DNA of 50,802 nucleotides, from positions 1 to 50,802 of the forward strand of contig JBKOZS010000143.1 in assembly GCA_046726015.1 (NCBI GenBank). The letters are read 5' to 3'. Source of the stretch: Acidobacteriota bacterium. GTDB lineage: Bacteria; Acidobacteriota; Vicinamibacteria; Vicinamibacterales; 2-12-FULL-66-21. Positions within the stretch are counted from its first letter, which is position 1. Each line of letters starts with the position of its first letter. Shown here piece by piece: positions 35,720 through 39,950 of this stretch. The position numbers and the translations under genes were made by a program. The notes below the pieces were generated by a model, which worked only from the letters and a program-made list of their open reading frames with translations, did not search any database and was not told the origin of the DNA.

Positions 35720-36343
35720 GTGTCAAAGGACGCCGTTGCTGTCGGGATCGCGGGTGTGTTTTTCGGGCTGCTCGTGGGCTGGATTATCGGCAGCCAGCAG
35801 GCAACCGGTGGCGCCCCACAACCGGCGGCTGCTCAAGCCACGAGCGGATCCGCTCCCGCAAGCTCACAGCAGCAACCGGCGCCACAGCCGGTCGACGAAT
35901 CGCGCGCGGCCGCGATGAAGACCGCGGCACAGCAGAACCCGAACGATGCTGTCGTGCGGGTGCAGCTCGGGGACATGTACTTCGACGCCGAACGGCTGCA
36001 GGAAGCGGCCCAATGGTACGAGGCGGCGCTGAAGATCAATCCGAAAGACGTCAACGCGAGCACCGACCTTGGCATCGCGTATTACTACATGAACCAGCCG
36101 GATCGTGCCCTCGTGCAATTCGAACACTCGCTGTCGATCGATCCGAAGCACTCGAAGACGCTGCTCAACCAGGGGATCGTGCGCGCGTTCGGCAAGCAGG
36201 ACCTGAAGGGCGCCACCGCGGCGTGGGAGAAGGTCCTGCAGGTTGCGCCGAACTCCGAGGAGGCCCGCGCGGCAAAGCAGGCGCTCGATGGGGTGCGCTC
36301 CGCGCACCAGAACCTCGACGCCGGCAGCGGCACCGGGCGTTGA
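35720..36343 (+). CDS. Membrane-anchored TPR protein
   Basis: N-terminal TM segment, Q/P/A-rich linker and three TPR-like repeats. TATAAT lies 8 nt before the GTG. Confidence 0.85.
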   Translation: MSKDAVAVGIAGVFFGLLVGWIIGSQQATGGAPQPAAAQATSGSAPASSQQQPAPQPVDESRAAAMKTAAQQNPNDAVVRVQLGDMYFDAERLQEAAQWYEAALKINPKDVNASTDLGIAYYYMNQPDRALVQFEHSLSIDPKHSKTLLNQGIVRAFGKQDLKGATAAWEKVLQVAPNSEEARAAKQALDGVRSAHQNLDAGSGTGR

Positions 36344-36344
36344 G

Positions 36345-36593
36345 ATGCTCCGCCTTCTCATCTTCCTGGTGCTCGTGTACTTCGTCGGCCGAGCGGTCTG
36401 GCGCCTGTTCCGCGGCATCGCCGAGGGCATGAGCGCATCGCGCGATCCACAGGCGCCGACAGCCGTCCCGCTCGTGCGCGACCCGGTGTGCGGCACGTTC
36501 GTCGTGCCCTCGCGCGCGCTGACCGCCGGCTCCGGCAACGACCTGCACTTCTTCTGCTCCGAACGCTGCCGCCAGGCATGGACGAAGCGGTGA
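36345..36593 (+). CDS. Small membrane protein with a YHS/TRASH-like metal-binding domain
   Basis: TM segment MLRLLIFLVLVYFVG, then VRDPVCGTFV...HFFCSERC. Confidence 0.8.
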   Translation: MLRLLIFLVLVYFVGRAVWRLFRGIAEGMSASRDPQAPTAVPLVRDPVCGTFVVPSRALTAGSGNDLHFFCSERCRQAWTKR

Positions 36594-37450
36594 TGGCGGT
36601 TCCCAGCGTCGCGAACCTCCGCGAAGACATCGTCGAAGTCGGACGCCGCATGTATGCGCGCGGGTACACCGCGTCGAACGACGGCAACATCAGCGTCCGC
36701 CTCGATGCCGGACGGTTGTTGATGACGCCGGCGAACGTCTGCAAGGGTTTCATGACCCCGCAGATGATGTGCATCACCGACCTCGAGGGACGGAAACTCG
36801 AAGGGGATCGCAATCCCTCCTCCGAGATGCAGATGCACCTCGAGGTATATCGGCAGCGGCCGGACGTCAACGGTGTGGTGCATGCACATCCGCCGATCGC
36901 CACCGGCTTTGCCGTCGCCGGGATCGCGCTCGACCGCGCGGTGCTGGCCGAGGTGATCACGACGCTTGGCAGCGTGCCTATTGCCGATTACGCGACCCCC
37001 TCGACGAAAGAGCTGCCGGAGGCGGTGCGCCGCTACATCAAGGCGCACGACGGCATGCTGCTCGCGAATCACGGCGCCCTGACGGTGGGGGGCGATCTGT
37101 TCTCCGCGTACTACAAAATGGAGACGATCGAGCACTTCGCAAAAATCAGTTTCGTCGCGCGGATGCTTGGCGGCGAACGGCTGCTCTCGCGGCAGGAGGT
37201 CGATCGGCTGCAAGGGCTTCGCGGCCGCTACGGCATCGCCGCTCCAGCACCAATCTGCGCGGATCCGGAGGCGTCGCAATCGGCCGACCAGGTCGCCTGT
37301 CAGACGGTGTTTGCGCCGCAGGGCGACGGCGAGCGGCTCATTCCCGATTACCGGGCTGGCGCTGGTGGAATAGGTCCGGACGGTGAAATTCGGCTAACAT
37401 ACCGCGAACTGTCAGCACTGATTGAGGCGGCCGTTCGAGAACTCAAGTAA
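36593..37450 (+). CDS. Class II aldolase (FucA/RhaD-like), BMC-associated, with a C-terminal encapsulation peptide
   Basis: Motifs NDGNISVR, PSSEMQMHL, VHAHPP and LANHG. An ~70-aa extension ends in LTYRELSALIEAAVRELK. Confidence 0.92.
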   Translation: MAVPSVANLREDIVEVGRRMYARGYTASNDGNISVRLDAGRLLMTPANVCKGFMTPQMMCITDLEGRKLEGDRNPSSEMQMHLEVYRQRPDVNGVVHAHPPIATGFAVAGIALDRAVLAEVITTLGSVPIADYATPSTKELPEAVRRYIKAHDGMLLANHGALTVGGDLFSAYYKMETIEHFAKISFVARMLGGERLLSRQEVDRLQGLRGRYGIAAPAPICADPEASQSADQVACQTVFAPQGDGERLIPDYRAGAGGIGPDGEIRLTYRELSALIEAAVRELK

Positions 37451-37542: not shown

Positions 37543-37836
37543 ATGGGTGAGGCGCTCGGGATGGTCGAGACCAAGGGGCTGGTCGCAATGATTGAGGCGG
37601 CCGACGCGATGGTCAAGGCCGCCAAGGTGACCCTGGTGGGCTGGGAGAAGATTGGCGCCGGGTACGTGACGGCGATCGTCCGCGGTGACGTCGCTGCCGT
37701 GAAGGCTGCCACCGACGCCGGCGCCGCGGCGGCGCGCCGTGTCGGCGAGCTCGTGTCGGTCCACGTCATCCCGCGTCCTCACGCCAATCTCGAGGACACG
37801 CTGCCCATCGGGAAAGCCACGGCGAATACGAAATGA
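37543..37836 (+). CDS. eutM: BMC hexamer shell protein (EutM/PduA-like)
   Basis: [24 protein letters not shown], pore motif [15 protein letters not shown] and [16 protein letters not shown]. Confidence 0.96.
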
Positions 37837-37950: not shown

Positions 37951-38220
37951 ATGATTCTCGCGAGGGTGGTTGGAACCGTTGTCGCGACGCGCAAGGACGA
38001 GCGGCTCGTGAGCAACAAGCTGCTCGTCGCCCGGCCGGTCGATCCCACTGGCAAGGCGGACGGCAATTACCTGGTTGCCGTCGATACCGTTGATGCCGGC
38101 TTCGGCGAAACCGTGCTGATCGTCAGCGGCAGTTCCGCCCGCATGGCATCCGGCATGAAAGACTGCCCTGTCGATGCCGTCATCGTCGGCATCGTTGACA
38201 CGGTTGAAGTACAGGATTGA
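37951..38220 (+). CDS. BMC pentamer vertex protein (EutN/CcmL family) 1
   Basis: MILARVVGTVVATRK...VAVDTVDAGFGETVL...DAVIVGIVD. Confidence 0.95.
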   Translation: MILARVVGTVVATRKDERLVSNKLLVARPVDPTGKADGNYLVAVDTVDAGFGETVLIVSGSSARMASGMKDCPVDAVIVGIVDTVEVQD

Positions 38221-38221
38221 T

Positions 38222-38488
38222 GTGCAGCTCGCGCGCGTGCTCGGCGAAGTGGTGGCGACGGTGAAGGACGAGAACCTGACGGGGTTCAAACTGCTGGTCC
38301 TGCAGCCGCTGTCCTCGTCGGGAGAGGCGGCCGGCCGTACGCTGGTCGCGCTCGATTCGGTCGGCGCCGGTGTTGGTGAGAACGTGTTCTTCGTCCGCGG
38401 CCGCGAAGCGGCGTTTCCTTTCTATCCCGCTGAGCCTCCGACCGACGCGTGCATCGTGGGCATCGTCGATCACTGGCACGTACCCTAG
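38222..38488 (+). CDS. BMC pentamer vertex protein (EutN/CcmL family) 2
   Basis: GTG start, QLARVLGEVVATVK...ALDSVGAGVGENV...DACIVGIVD. Confidence 0.93.
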   Translation: MQLARVLGEVVATVKDENLTGFKLLVLQPLSSSGEAAGRTLVALDSVGAGVGENVFFVRGREAAFPFYPAEPPTDACIVGIVDHWHVP

Positions 38489-38490
38489 CG

Positions 38491-38763
38491 ATGCAGATTG
38501 CGCGCGTGGTCGGCACGGTCGTCGCGACCCAGAAGAACCGCAAGCTCGAAGGCGCGAAGCTGCTGCTGGTGCAGCCGCTGACGCTGGATGACCAGCCGCG
38601 AGGGGTGACGCTGCTGGCGATTGACTCGGTTGGCGCGGGCGTGGGCGAGAAGGTGTTGGTCGTGATTGAAGGCAAAGCCGCCGGCCAGGCGCTTGGGAAA
38701 AAGGCGGCCGCGGTCGATGCCGCGATCATCGGCATCGTCGACGCGGTAGAGTACGAACGATGA
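38491..38763 (+). CDS. BMC pentamer vertex protein (EutN/CcmL family) 3
   Basis: MQIARVVGTVVATQK...AIDSVGAGVGEKVL...DAAIIGIVD. Confidence 0.95.
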   Translation: MQIARVVGTVVATQKNRKLEGAKLLLVQPLTLDDQPRGVTLLAIDSVGAGVGEKVLVVIEGKAAGQALGKKAAAVDAAIIGIVDAVEYER

Positions 38764-38987
38764 ACGAGGACGCGCTCCGGGCGCTCGTGCGCGACACCAT
38801 TGCGCGGCTCGGCACGTCGGGTCCGGGCGAACCGCCGTCGCCGCCGTTTGGTGCGAGTCAGCCGTTGCCGTTGGCGCGTCATGCGAGTCACTACCGCTAC
38901 ACGCTGACCAAAACCGACGGTCCGTGTCTCATCGAACCCTCGGTGCAGTGCAATCACTGCGGGTACTGCGAGAGTCACGGTCACTGA
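38760..38987 (+). CDS. Small BMC-associated protein with an N-terminal encapsulation-peptide-like helix and a C-terminal Cys/His cluster
   Basis: MNEDALRALVRDTIARL, Pro-rich linker, CLIEPSVQCNHCGYCESHGH. ATGA overlap with the previous gene. Confidence 0.8.
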   Translation: MNEDALRALVRDTIARLGTSGPGEPPSPPFGASQPLPLARHASHYRYTLTKTDGPCLIEPSVQCNHCGYCESHGH

Positions 38988-39014
38988 CGCCGGGCGTCAG
39001 CCTTCAGGCTTGAA

Positions 39015-39950
39015 GTGGGTTCCGTCCTTCTCACGCGCCGCATCCCGTCATCGGTTTTCTCGCAGCTCGAGTCGCGGCACACGGTCGACTTGAACGACCG
39101 CGATTCGCTTCCACCACCGGAACTGAAGAAGCGCCTGGCCGACAAGGACGCCGTCATCTGCGTGCTCACCGACAAGATCGACGCGTCGGTGATGGACGCG
39201 GGGCCGGCGCTCAAAGTGATCTCGAACATTGCGGTCGGATACGACAATATCGACGTGGACGCGGCGCGTCAGCGCGGCATCATCGTCACCAACACGCCGG
39301 ACGTGTTGACCGATGCGGTCGCGGAGCTCACGTGGGCGCTGATGCTCGGGATCGCGCGCCGCGTCGCTGAAGGCGATCGACTGATCCGCGCGGGTGAATG
39401 GAAGCGCTGGGGTCTCGACTTCATGCTCGGGACGGAGCTCCGGGGCAAGCAGCTCGGGATCATTGGGGCCGGCCGCATCGGCCGGGCCGTTGCCGCGAAA
39501 GCCCCGGCGTTTGGCATGAGCGTCGTGTTCTCGCGCCGTTCCGCCGATCCGGGCGACCCGCGTTACGTGTCACTCGACCAGCTGCTCATCTCGTCGGACG
39601 TCATCTCGATCCACACGCCGCAGACGCCACAGACGCGGCATCTGATCGACAAGAAGGCATTCGCACGGATGAAGCGATCGGCGCTTCTCATCAACACCGC
39701 GCGCGGGCCAATCGTGGACGAAGAGGCGCTGGTGTGGGCGCTCGGCGAGCGGCTGATCGCGGGAGCCGCCCTCGACGTGTACGAGAAGGAGCCAGAGGTG
39801 CATTCGGGCCTTCTGCGCTTCGAGAACGTCCTGCTCGCGCCGCACGTTGGCAGCGCCACACGCGAGACGCGCACCGCGATGGCGGAGCTTGCGGTCAAGA
39901 ACGCAATGGCCGTCCTGGCCGGCGATGAGCCACTGACACCCGTCACCTAG
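39015..39950 (+). CDS. D-2-hydroxyacid dehydrogenase (glyoxylate/hydroxypyruvate reductase, D-glycerate dehydrogenase family)
   Basis: Motifs AVGYDNID, TNTPDVLT, GAGRIG, INTARG, LDVYEKEP and PHVGSAT. Confidence 0.93.
   Translation: MGSVLLTRRIPSSVFSQLESRHTVDLNDRDSLPPPELKKRLADKDAVICVLTDKIDASVMDAGPALKVISNIAVGYDNIDVDAARQRGIIVTNTPDVLTDAVAELTWALMLGIARRVAEGDRLIRAGEWKRWGLDFMLGTELRGKQLGIIGAGRIGRAVAAKAPAFGMSVVFSRRSADPGDPRYVSLDQLLISSDVISIHTPQTPQTRHLIDKKAFARMKRSALLINTARGPIVDEEALVWALGERLIAGAALDVYEKEPEVHSGLLRFENVLLAPHVGSATRETRTAMAELAVKNAMAVLAGDEPLTPVT

What the first reader, a model, noticed from the sequence alone, without database searches (positions are those of the whole stretch)
38760..38987. 75-aa microprotein: encapsulation peptide fused to a Cx7Cx2Cx2Cx2HxH metal site
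Seen: an N-terminal amphipathic helix NEDALRALVRDTIARL, a Pro-rich linker, HASH, and a terminal CLIEPSVQCNHCGYCESHGH. The gene is translationally coupled to the third pentamer. I do not recognise a named family. Inference: a lumenal Fe-S or Zn protein acting as a redox carrier, metal store or cargo scaffold, and a likely signature gene for this BMC type.
Basis: partly seen in the sequence, partly recalled or inferred. Interest (0 to 1): 0.7.

Follow-up and report, generated by a model that had tools for sequence, protein, structure and literature searches.

The report
Small cysteine protein of ACI microcompartments
This is a real, strongly conserved 75-residue gene of the Acidobacteria-specific "ACI" bacterial microcompartment, joining a targeting-type helix to a tiny cysteine knot that probably holds a metal; a 2021 catalogue already noted this protein type and its function is still untested.

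Summary
The ORF at 38760-38987 (+) is real: 75 aa, ATG overlapping the TGA of the third BMC-P gene. It has 2184 short homologues and no Pfam or NCBIfam match.

The locus is the ACI-type microcompartment of Sutter et al. 2021. [quoted passage not shown]

In every locus I mapped, the gene lies directly downstream of the P3-type pentamer gene: 80/80, 30/30 and 24/24.

Across the phylum only C56, E59, C64, C70 and G74 are invariant. C67 and the terminal His vary, and H73 is not conserved.

The gene is not universal. Seven of 37 same-order genomes keep the locus and the aldehyde dehydrogenase but lack it.

No fold or family match tells zinc from iron-sulfur.

Best reading: a lumen-targeted metal knuckle made together with the third pentamer, probably a structural adaptor. 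A mini-ferredoxin is the main rival.

The parts
38760..38987 (+). The 75-aa gene (stop included): small encapsulation-peptide/Cys protein of the ACI-type microcompartment
   Evidence: ORF list; sequence; 2184 homologues; 207 cluster representatives
38766..38810 (+). Residues 3-17: predicted N-terminal helix, read as an encapsulation peptide
   Evidence: AF2 helix 3-17, pLDDT about 90. L6, R7, V/I10, R11 and I/V/L14 are conserved. The hydrophobic pattern resembles the aldolase C-terminal helix of the same locus. Sutter 2021 Supplementary Data 2 calls it an N-terminal EP. A hydrophobic-moment test was not significant.
38811..38879 (+). Residues 18-40: Pro/Gly/Ser-rich variable linker
   Evidence: pLDDT about 60. 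Length and sequence vary among homologues, which range from 40 to 118 aa.
38880..38984 (+). Residues 41-75: conserved Cys domain (HxSH ... C56 xxE59P ... C64 xxC67 xxC70 xxxG74 H75-end)
   Evidence: Conservation counts. pLDDT 82-93. The chain ends exactly 5 residues after the last Cys in 138 of 141 representatives that have CxxCxxC.
38491..38763 (+). Third BMC-P (pentamer) gene, P3 type; its stop overlaps the start of the small gene
   Evidence: PF03319 E 4.3e-29; ATGA overlap; adjacency in 80/80, 30/30 and 24/24 loci
38222..38488 (+). Second BMC-P gene (start inferred at GTG 38222)
   Evidence: PF03319 E 3.2e-26, with the match starting at residue 18 of the longer ORF
37951..38220 (+). First BMC-P gene
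   Evidence: PF03319 E 1.3e-31
37543..37836 (+). BMC-H (hexamer) shell gene
   Evidence: PF00936 E 2.8e-30
36578..37450 (+). Class II aldolase with a C-terminal helix of EP type (start uncertain; the ORF opens at 36488)
   Evidence: PF00596 E 1.5e-49; C-terminal extension after the Pfam match; ACI description
39015..39950 (+). D-2-hydroxyacid dehydrogenase of the locus, with no terminal extension
   Evidence: PF02826 E 3.1e-57 and PF00389 E 5.9e-33, matching residues 4-310 of 311. It lies within 400 nt downstream of the small gene in 69/80 loci.

Best explanation
The gene encodes the small accessory protein of the ACI-type bacterial microcompartment.

Shown:
- It is a real, strongly conserved gene.
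- It always lies immediately downstream of the P3-type pentamer gene, here with an ATGA stop/start overlap.
- It is found only in such loci in everything examined.

Predicted:
- An N-terminal helix (residues 3-17).
- A floppy Pro-rich tether (18-40).
- A compact 35-residue C-terminal knot (41-75).

Inferred mechanism:
- Ribosomes finishing P3 restart on this gene, so it is made in low, pentamer-like amounts.
- The helix acts as an encapsulation peptide. It carries the protein inside by binding the inner shell surface or bundling with the similar helices of the aldolase and the aldehyde dehydrogenase.
- The knot folds around one metal centre held by the three invariant cysteines (C56, C64, C70) plus a fourth, replaceable ligand. 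In this subfamily that ligand is C67. In others it may be a neighbouring Cys or a His.

I consider a structural, zinc-type knuckle most likely. It would present a rigid, conserved face (HxSH, E59-P60, H66, Y69, and the fixed G-H carboxyl end) to a partner protein. The protein would then work as a tethered adaptor or organiser at the inner shell face rather than as an enzyme. By gene linkage the best partner candidate is the P3 pentamer. A cargo without its own targeting helix, such as the hydroxyacid dehydrogenase, is the second candidate. The protein is accessory: some relatives keep the whole organelle gene set without it.
For: - Real and conserved.
- Locus identity: Pfam hits match the ACI description in Sutter 2021 (main text passages; Supplementary Data 2). 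That supplement names this protein type, its EP and its conserved cysteines, and suggests metal binding.
- Architecture: AF2 gives helix 3-17, then a low-confidence linker, then a confident C-terminal part.
- Linkage to P3: 80/80 loci, 30/30 including the window itself, and 24/24 loci from other acidobacterial families. This includes loci where aldolase, BMC-H or the dehydrogenase are elsewhere (L110, L117, L118, L133, L134).
- Coupling: stop/start overlap in 52 of 78 loci.
- Metal-site logic: three invariant Cys plus invariant E59 and G74, with C67 about 90% conserved. The C-terminus sits exactly 5 residues after the last Cys in 138/141.
- Zinc-type lean: the profile's only near-threshold PDB hits are the structural-zinc loop of medium-chain alcohol dehydrogenases (5vm2 E 0.048, 1e3j E 0.13), aligned Cys on Cys. 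A distant family member independently touches L-idonate 5-dehydrogenase at the same loop (E 0.026).
- No electron-conduit shell protein was detected in this genome.
- Accessory status: 7 of 37 same-order genomes lack it. In the 4 of these 7 whose locus I fetched, the locus is intact. All 5 of the 7 that I searched still carry the aldehyde dehydrogenase.
Against: - No experiment exists, and neither encapsulation nor metal binding was tested.
- The similarity to the alcohol-dehydrogenase zinc loop is not significant. hhalign gives 8.7% probability, and the fourth Cys of that loop has no counterpart.
- CxxCxxC with Gly after the second Cys also fits 4Fe-4S ferredoxins. Five of 115 members touch Fer4-type Pfam models, but only at E 0.13-0.55.
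- The helix's hydrophobic moment (0.35) is no higher than that of shuffled sequences (mean 0.33; 43% reach it).
- Distance-matrix correlation with P3 (r 0.41) is only slightly above P1 (0.35) and P2 (0.31), and below aldolase (0.475).
- Natural loss in 7 genomes shows the organelle genes persist without it.
- No solved fold matches the model.
Confidence: 0.42

Rival explanations
1. Encapsulated mini-ferredoxin. The knot binds a [4Fe-4S] or [3Fe-4S] cluster through C64, C67, C70 and the remote C56. It relays electrons inside the lumen, for example between NADH-linked enzymes and the shell.
For: The subfamily has a C-x7-C-x2-C-G-x-C motif, with all four Cys near-invariant. In distant members the Cys lost is the middle one of the triad. 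From my recollection of P. furiosus and D. gigas ferredoxins, not from any call, that is the ligand dispensable in 3Fe/4Fe ferredoxins. There are weak Fer4-type Pfam touches in 5/115 members. Fe-S proteins are known in microcompartments: the MNdh/BMC-T(SE) module is reported 7 times in ACI (passage of PMC11626177).
Against: No Fer4 hit reaches significance, and the window's own protein has none even at E<=10. There is no C-P signature. About 35 residues is well below the size of known ferredoxins (my knowledge). Some family members have only three Cys and no His (L126). This genome (87.9% complete) shows no tandem BMC-T shell protein. The two PF01512 matches lie on contigs C4 and C57, where no BMC-domain match was found. 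No redox partner is conserved beside the gene.
Confidence: 0.3
2. Lumenal metal chaperone or buffer. The Cys3(+1) site holds Zn(II), or another ion, loosely. It supplies the metal-dependent class II aldolase, or other cargo, once sealed inside the shell.
For: The locus's signature enzyme is a class II aldolase. That this family is zinc-dependent is established knowledge, not tested here. The fourth ligand is variable and Glu59 is invariant, which could suit exchangeable binding. Sutter 2021 remarks that metal binding may matter for this locus type.
Against: In family f70 the small gene sits in loci where no aldolase was found in the 2.5-3.6 kb held beyond BMC-H (L115, L116, L135). One site per 75-aa chain at pentamer-like expression would be a poor store. 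Genomes without the small gene keep the aldolase.
Confidence: 0.1
3. Metal-free thiol protein. The cysteines act as redox-active thiols or disulfides, or carry a persulfide or acyl group inside the lumen. This could substitute for a missing core function: no PTAC was found in this genome.
For: A CxxC pair is present. PF06130 (PTAC) was not found in this 87.9%-complete genome, so CoA recycling in this organelle is unexplained.
Against: This is pure speculation with no precedent that I know of. The CxxC pairing is lost in family members with Ser at position 67. The invariant Glu-Pro and the fixed C-terminus suit a folded knot better than a carrier arm.
Confidence: 0.05
4. Ribosomal peptide precursor: an N-terminal leader with a Cys-rich core that enzymes modify.
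For: Short length, a conserved N-terminal helix and a Cys-rich C-terminus. The inserted domain of the long forms weakly resembles flavin-dependent Cys decarboxylases (Foldseek E 0.4; VIA Z 6.2).
Against: The conserved neighbours found by tblastn are shell genes, a dehydrogenase and endonuclease III. I did not scan the flanks for modification-enzyme families. The last residue is His, Phe or Tyr, not Cys. The Z values are below what the tool itself calls meaningful.
Confidence: 0.02

Closest known systems
[quoted passage not shown]
   Same: Same locus type (class II aldolase with a C-terminal EP, hydroxyacid dehydrogenase, BMC-P triplet, BMC-H). Same size, N-terminal helix and C-terminal cysteines. 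Same phylum.
   Different: Nothing essential: this is a member. Added here: four Cys in this subfamily but three family-wide; invariant Glu59 and Gly74; a fixed C-terminus; strict adjacency to the P3-type pentamer gene; natural losses; 130-187-aa forms with an inserted domain.
Encapsulation peptides of metabolosome cargo (defined in Sutter 2021, Introduction: a ~15-20 aa amphipathic helix joined to a cargo terminus by a flexible linker)
   Same: A predicted 15-residue helix, then a disordered Pro-rich linker, at the N-terminus of a protein encoded among shell genes.
   Different: The 'cargo' is only about 35 residues. R7 and R11 are nearly invariant, which is more sequence conservation than a generic hydrophobic pattern needs. 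Targeting is untested.
Structural-zinc loop of medium-chain alcohol/polyol dehydrogenases (PDB 5vm2, 1e3j; Pfam ADH_N PF08240)
   Same: A local motif (I/V)-E-P-x3-C-x2-C-x2-C aligns Cys on Cys.
   Different: Not significant (E 0.026-0.13; hhalign probability 8.7%). There is no GroES-like domain. The loop's fourth Cys, 7 residues downstream, is replaced by the chain end, while a Cys 7 residues upstream is invariant. This is analogy, not membership.
4Fe-4S ferredoxin domains (Pfam Fer4 PF00037, Fer4_2 PF12797, Fer4_4 PF12800) and the Fe-S electron module MNdh/BMC-T(SE) of microcompartments (PMC11626177, passage read)
   Same: CxxCGxC spacing with a remote Cys, in a microcompartment context.
   Different: No significant model match, no Cys-Pro, far smaller, and no partner module in this genome.
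The ~260-aa unknown protein with a CDxxDxCSCGC motif in BUF2 loci (Sutter 2021 Supplementary Data 2)
   Same: Another family-less, Cys-motif protein encoded between shell genes and presumed to bind metal.
   Different: Different size and motif, no EP reported, different phylum. No sequence relation was tested.

Membership tests
ACI-type BMC small EP/Cys protein (Sutter 2021) | Encoded in an ACI main locus: pfam00596 aldolase, pfam00389/02826 dehydrogenase, BMC-P triplet, BMC-H | tested here: met
   Pfam hits for all of these flank the gene on the same strand. The same order is seen in 73/80 related loci for aldolase and BMC-H, and 69/80 for the dehydrogenase.
ACI-type BMC small EP/Cys protein (Sutter 2021) | Very short, about 80 aa | tested here: met
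   75 aa. The median of 116 full-length representatives is 81 aa.
ACI-type BMC small EP/Cys protein (Sutter 2021) | Three conserved cysteines in the C-terminal domain | tested here: met
   C56, C64 and C70 are invariant in the 29-sequence cross-family alignment. C67 is an extra, about 90% conserved.
ACI-type BMC small EP/Cys protein (Sutter 2021) | N-terminal encapsulation peptide | tested here: inconclusive
   A helix at 3-17 plus a disordered linker is predicted, and the hydrophobic positions are conserved. The hydrophobic-moment test is not significant. Encapsulation itself is not testable here.
ACI-type BMC small EP/Cys protein (Sutter 2021) | Restricted to Acidobacteria | tested here: met
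   All 80 loci kept from a scan of 185,579 species genomes carry Acidobacteria, Acidobacteriota or Vicinamibacterales titles. Only the best 80 of 199 relatives were shown.
4Fe-4S ferredoxin domain (Pfam Fer4 clan) | Significant match to a Fer4-type model; CxxCxxCxxxCP signature | tested here: not met
   The window protein has 0 families even at E<=10. Five of 115 members match only at E 0.13-0.55. No Cys-Pro follows the triad.
4Fe-4S ferredoxin domain (Pfam Fer4 clan) | Binds an iron-sulfur cluster | not testable with these tools
   Needs anaerobic purification, UV-vis, EPR, and iron and sulfide analysis.
Medium-chain dehydrogenase structural-zinc loop (ADH_N, PF08240) | C-x2-C-x2-C-x7-C loop inside a GroES-like ADH_N domain | tested here: not met
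   hhalign against an ADH_N segment from this genome gives 8.7% probability over 21 columns. PDB profile hits have E 0.048 and 0.13. No ADH_N hit in Pfam.
Ribosomally made modified peptide precursor | Conserved modification-enzyme gene next to the precursor | tested here: inconclusive
   tblastn mapping with 9 locus proteins found only P3 upstream and, downstream, the dehydrogenase or endonuclease III. I did not scan the flanks for modification-enzyme families.

The most novel reading that the evidence does not exclude
The small protein is a partner specific to one pentamer paralogue. Its metal knot and fixed G-H/F carboxyl end dock on the lumenal face of the P3 pentamer, while its helix bundles with cargo helices. 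Cargo would thus be tied to the vertices. This would give the unexplained BMC-P triplet a first functional distinction between its members.
Probability: 0.12. Interest if true: 0.7.

Novelty: new member of a known kind. Interest (0 to 1): 0.3.

Why it matters
The ACI microcompartment is confined to Acidobacteria. Sutter et al. 2021 describe that phylum as making up as much as 60% of soil bacterial communities. The organelle's substrate and function are unknown.

This small protein is its most locus-specific component, so it is a practical marker for the locus type. It is also a cheap first target for bench work: 75 residues and one metal question. Its constant pairing with one of three pentamer paralogues bears on an open puzzle that the catalogue states itself: why many microcompartments encode three BMC-P genes.

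The basic observation is not new. It is in the 2021 supplement. Earlier reports of this scan reached the same reading for homologues in seven other genomes.

Tried and rejected
- **Homology with the aldehyde dehydrogenase tail.** I asked whether the ~50-aa domain after the EP of the satellite aldehyde dehydrogenase is related to the Cys knot. The tail (contig C274, 389-2137) has a single Cys, no Cys motif and an unrelated sequence. Rejected.
- **Fold searches of the 75-aa model.** Foldseek against PDB gave 1 match at E 8.1. VIA-align wide gave nothing at Z>=2. No information.
- **ESM Atlas.** Only the family's own unnamed clusters appeared.
- **Fused forms.** A search for longer proteins with residues 36-75 found one protein of 150 aa. 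Two listed proteins that join a BMC-P start to the small protein's end (P0132, P0199) look like frameshift or assembly products. I did not use them.
- **Mirror-tree on 71 loci.** r with P3 is 0.41, P1 0.35, P2 0.31, BMC-H 0.19 and aldolase 0.475. Partial r for P3 is 0.15. This is too weak and too confounded by kinship to count.
- **P3 residues in genomes without the small gene.** Seven positions differ, but the four genomes are close kin. Not interpretable.
- **Dehydrogenase-adaptor idea.** The dehydrogenase has no extension. However, the small gene occurs without an adjacent dehydrogenase (9/80 loci; family f40 loci), and the dehydrogenase occurs without the small gene. Neither supported nor excluded.
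- **RNA evidence.** No RNA holder was listed.
- **Terminator and promoter scan.** Nothing relevant around the gene.
- **Complex prediction, P3 plus the small protein.** The four-copy job met a full queue repeatedly, and then the tool was declared unavailable. Nothing was folded, so the P3-binding idea is untested.
- **Literature after 2021.** Searches for ACI, microcompartment, Acidobacteria and Vicinamibacter found no characterisation of the ACI organelle or of this protein in the held library. Subscription journals are not covered.

Full report
**Observation**

The window has an ORF at 38760-38987 on the + strand: ATG start, 75 codons. Its ATG overlaps the TGA of the preceding gene as ATGA.

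On the same strand, in order, Pfam finds:
- a class II aldolase (PF00596, E 1.5e-49);
- one BMC-H (PF00936, 2.8e-30);
- three EutN/CcmL pentamer genes (PF03319; 1.3e-31, 3.2e-26, 4.3e-29);
- the small ORF, with no family;
- a D-2-hydroxyacid dehydrogenase (PF02826, 3.1e-57).

The genes further out are housekeeping: TilS, FtsH, FolP, GlmM and PdxJ upstream; endonuclease III, cyclophilin, DUF72 and QueC downstream.

**It is a real gene**

- 2184 of 2186 candidate proteins of 41-132 aa match at E<=0.01. All are unnamed or 'hypothetical', and none has a Pfam domain.
- An exhaustive phmmer run over 1.84 billion cluster representatives gives 207 hits at E<=0.001 and 46 at E<=1e-10.
- One listed hit, P0148 (820 aa), is a repeat protein and was set aside.
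- NCBIfam has no model for the protein. The ESM Atlas returns only the family's own unnamed Acidobacteriota clusters.

**It is already in print**

The locus matches the 'ACI' type of Sutter et al. 2021 (PMC8217296). I read main-text passages and the ACI entry of Supplementary Data 2.

That entry says the main locus has a pfam00596 aldolase with a C-terminal EP, a hydroxyacid dehydrogenase and three proteins without known homologues. [quoted passage not shown] It adds that metal binding could be important for this locus type.

The entry also places the aldehyde dehydrogenase on a satellite locus. I found that locus in this genome on contig C274: BMC-H followed by a 582-aa aldehyde dehydrogenase with an EP-like helix and a further C-terminal domain.

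Four literature searches found no later work on the ACI organelle or this protein in the held library. Earlier reports of this scan on homologues in seven other genomes reached the same reading. They are not independent evidence.

**Anatomy**

AlphaFold2 with a 115-sequence alignment gives mean pLDDT 79.5. The model has a helix at 3-17 (about 90), a low-confidence stretch (about 60) and a confident C-terminal part (82-93) with a few bridges and a short helix.

I aligned the 149 representatives to a family HMM without selecting on cysteines. The counts are:

| Residue | Conserved |
|---|---|
| L6 | 120/136 |
| R7 | 133/136 |
| R11 | 132/138 |
| H41 | 119/145 |
| S43 | 134/145 |
| C56 | 146/147 |
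| E59 | 145/146 |
| P60 | 141/146 |
| C64 | 141/143 |
| H66 | 131/143 |
| C67 | 143/143 |
| C70 | 143/143 |
| G74 | 139/139 |
| H75 | 129/138 |
| H73 | 49/141 |

The 'HxH' of the finding is therefore not a conserved pair. The chain ends exactly five residues after the last Cys in 138 of the 141 representatives that have CxxCxxC.

The helix shares its hydrophobic spacing with the aldolase's C-terminal helix. Its hydrophobic moment, however, is not above shuffled controls (0.35 against a mean of 0.33). The EP assignment therefore rests on predicted structure, conserved pattern and the catalogue's own call.

**Wider family**

- A profile of the window's subfamily hits 40 of 401 sampled Acidobacteriota genomes, including 30 of 37 in the same order.
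- PF03319 hits 208 of the same 401 (this tally includes one genome, G152, flagged as unpublished). All 40 profile hits are among the 208.
- After adding distant forms to the profile, 91 of 401 genomes match. The only hit outside the PF03319 list is a marginal one with an internal stop (G244, E 0.008).

The distant forms keep the plan of helix, spacer and Cys tail but vary:
- several end in Gly-Phe or Gly-Tyr instead of Gly-His;
- some have Ser at position 67;
- family f31 has CC or CS at positions 64-65.

Invariant across 29 sequences from all these groups are only C56, E59, C64, C70 and G74. This agrees with the catalogue's 'three conserved cysteines'.

Families f31 and f70 have 126-187-aa versions with an inserted domain, seen as about 75 residues in the f31 model. 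In the f31 model that domain is predicted with pLDDT about 95. It has no Pfam match in the five long forms scanned (three f31, two f70). It makes a weak NCBIfam touch to a hypothetical ethanolamine-utilisation protein family (TIGR02536, E 0.01). It has weak fold similarity to half of the flavin-dependent decarboxylase fold (Foldseek E 0.4; Z 6.2), below the level the tool calls meaningful.

**Context**

The gene lies directly downstream of a BMC-P gene on the same strand in all 80 loci kept from the species-genome scan. In the mapped loci the upstream gene is the P3 type: all 30 loci from the phylum sample, one being the window itself, and all 24 loci fetched from other families.

This holds even where only P2/P3 or P3 alone accompanies it (L110, L117, L118, L133, L134). 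Other neighbours are less constant: aldolase and BMC-H in 73/80, the dehydrogenase within 400 nt downstream in 69/80, and endonuclease III directly downstream in 9/80. Stop/start overlap with P3 occurs in 52 of 78 scorable loci.

The gene is not universal. Seven same-order genomes, at least four of them assembled as a single contig, have no match with either profile. In the four I fetched, the aldolase, BMC-H and BMC-P triplet are intact, three also have the dehydrogenase adjacent, and only 55-130 bp follow P3. Five of five such genomes still carry the full-length aldehyde dehydrogenase, as do five of five genomes that have the small gene.

**Which metal?**

No computation settles it.

For iron-sulfur:
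- The CxxCGxC triad with a remote Cys resembles ferredoxins.
- The Cys that is lost in relatives is the middle one.
- Fer4-type Pfam models are touched by 5 of 115 members, but only at E 0.13-0.55, and not by the window's protein.

For zinc:
- The family profile's best PDB hits are the structural-zinc loop of medium-chain dehydrogenases (5vm2 E 0.048; 1e3j E 0.13), aligned Cys on Cys.
- A distant member independently touches L-idonate 5-dehydrogenase at the same loop (E 0.026).
- hhalign against such a loop from this genome reproduces the register but gives only 8.7% probability. This is a resemblance, not homology.

Other points lean my estimate towards a zinc-type structural knuckle:
- the small size of the domain;
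- the replaceable fourth ligand;
- the lack of a tandem-domain BMC-T shell protein in this 87.9%-complete genome; the two PF01512 matches lie on contigs without a BMC-domain match.

My rough weights are 45-50% zinc-type, 30% Fe-S, and the rest other.

**Mechanism proposed**

Shown: gene, conservation, position, overlap.

Predicted: helix, tether, knot.

Inferred:
- coupled translation gives pentamer-like low abundance;
- the helix brings the protein inside;
- the knot, stiffened by a metal bound to C56, C64 and C70 plus one further ligand, presents a conserved face and a fixed carboxyl end to a partner.

Gene linkage points to the P3 pentamer as the first candidate partner. I could not test this. 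The complex predictor allows at most four copies of a chain, its queue was full, and then it was withdrawn. A mirror-tree comparison was inconclusive.

**Verdict**

It is a further member of a protein type noted in 2021 and still uncharacterised. Interest is modest.

Noticed in passing
window 36243-36593 (+): A small protein just upstream of the aldolase, with an N-terminal hydrophobic stretch and a Cys-containing C-terminal motif. It makes a weak match to the NCBIfam PP0621 family (E 1.5e-6, below cut-off). It is syntenic in 69/80 related loci. It may be one of the 'unknown' ACI proteins, or it may just be conserved local gene order.
   Followed up: partly
window 38984-39000: A perfect 8-nt inverted repeat (CTGACGCC / GGCGTCAG, 1 nt between the arms) spans the stop codon of the small gene, 15 nt before the dehydrogenase start. 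It has no T-run and was not listed by the terminator scan.
   Followed up: partly
own genome contig C274, 83-2137 (locus L145): Satellite locus: a second BMC-H, followed 1 nt later by a 582-aa aldehyde dehydrogenase. The enzyme carries an EP-like helix near its end and a further ~50-aa C-terminal domain, as the 2021 catalogue describes.
   Followed up: partly
loci L125-L132, L135, L115, L116 (other acidobacterial families): Homologues of 126-187 aa carry an inserted alpha/beta domain, about 75 residues with pLDDT about 95 in the f31 model, between the N-terminal helix and the Cys tail. There is no Pfam match. There are weak touches to TIGR02536 'eut_hyp' (E 0.01) and to half of the UbiX/EpiD-type flavoprotein fold (Z 6.2).
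   Followed up: partly
G325 and G334 (loci L106, L108): Two single-contig genomes of the same order show only two BMC-P genes, with the P2 type missing, yet keep the small gene right after P3.
   Followed up: no
G044, G073, G110, G198, G258, G351, G367 (loci L120-L123 for four of them): These same-order genomes have no match to the small gene. The four fetched loci are otherwise complete, with 55-130 bp after P3. This is a natural knock-out set for comparison.
   Followed up: partly
own genome (87.9% complete): No PduL-type phosphotransacylase (PF06130) was found. Only two BMC-domain genes were found. How this organelle would recycle CoA is open.
   Followed up: no
loci L111, L112 (family f40): A gap of about 430 bp between the first and second BMC-P genes could hold another small unknown gene of the locus.
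   Followed up: no
window 38286-38984 (-): A 232-aa ORF on the opposite strand overlaps P2, P3 and the small gene. Given the conserved + strand genes and the high G+C content, I read it as a non-coding artefact.
   Followed up: no
proteins P0132, P0199: Database proteins that join the start of a P3-type BMC-P to the tail of the small protein. They are probably frameshift or assembly products rather than true fusions.
   Followed up: no
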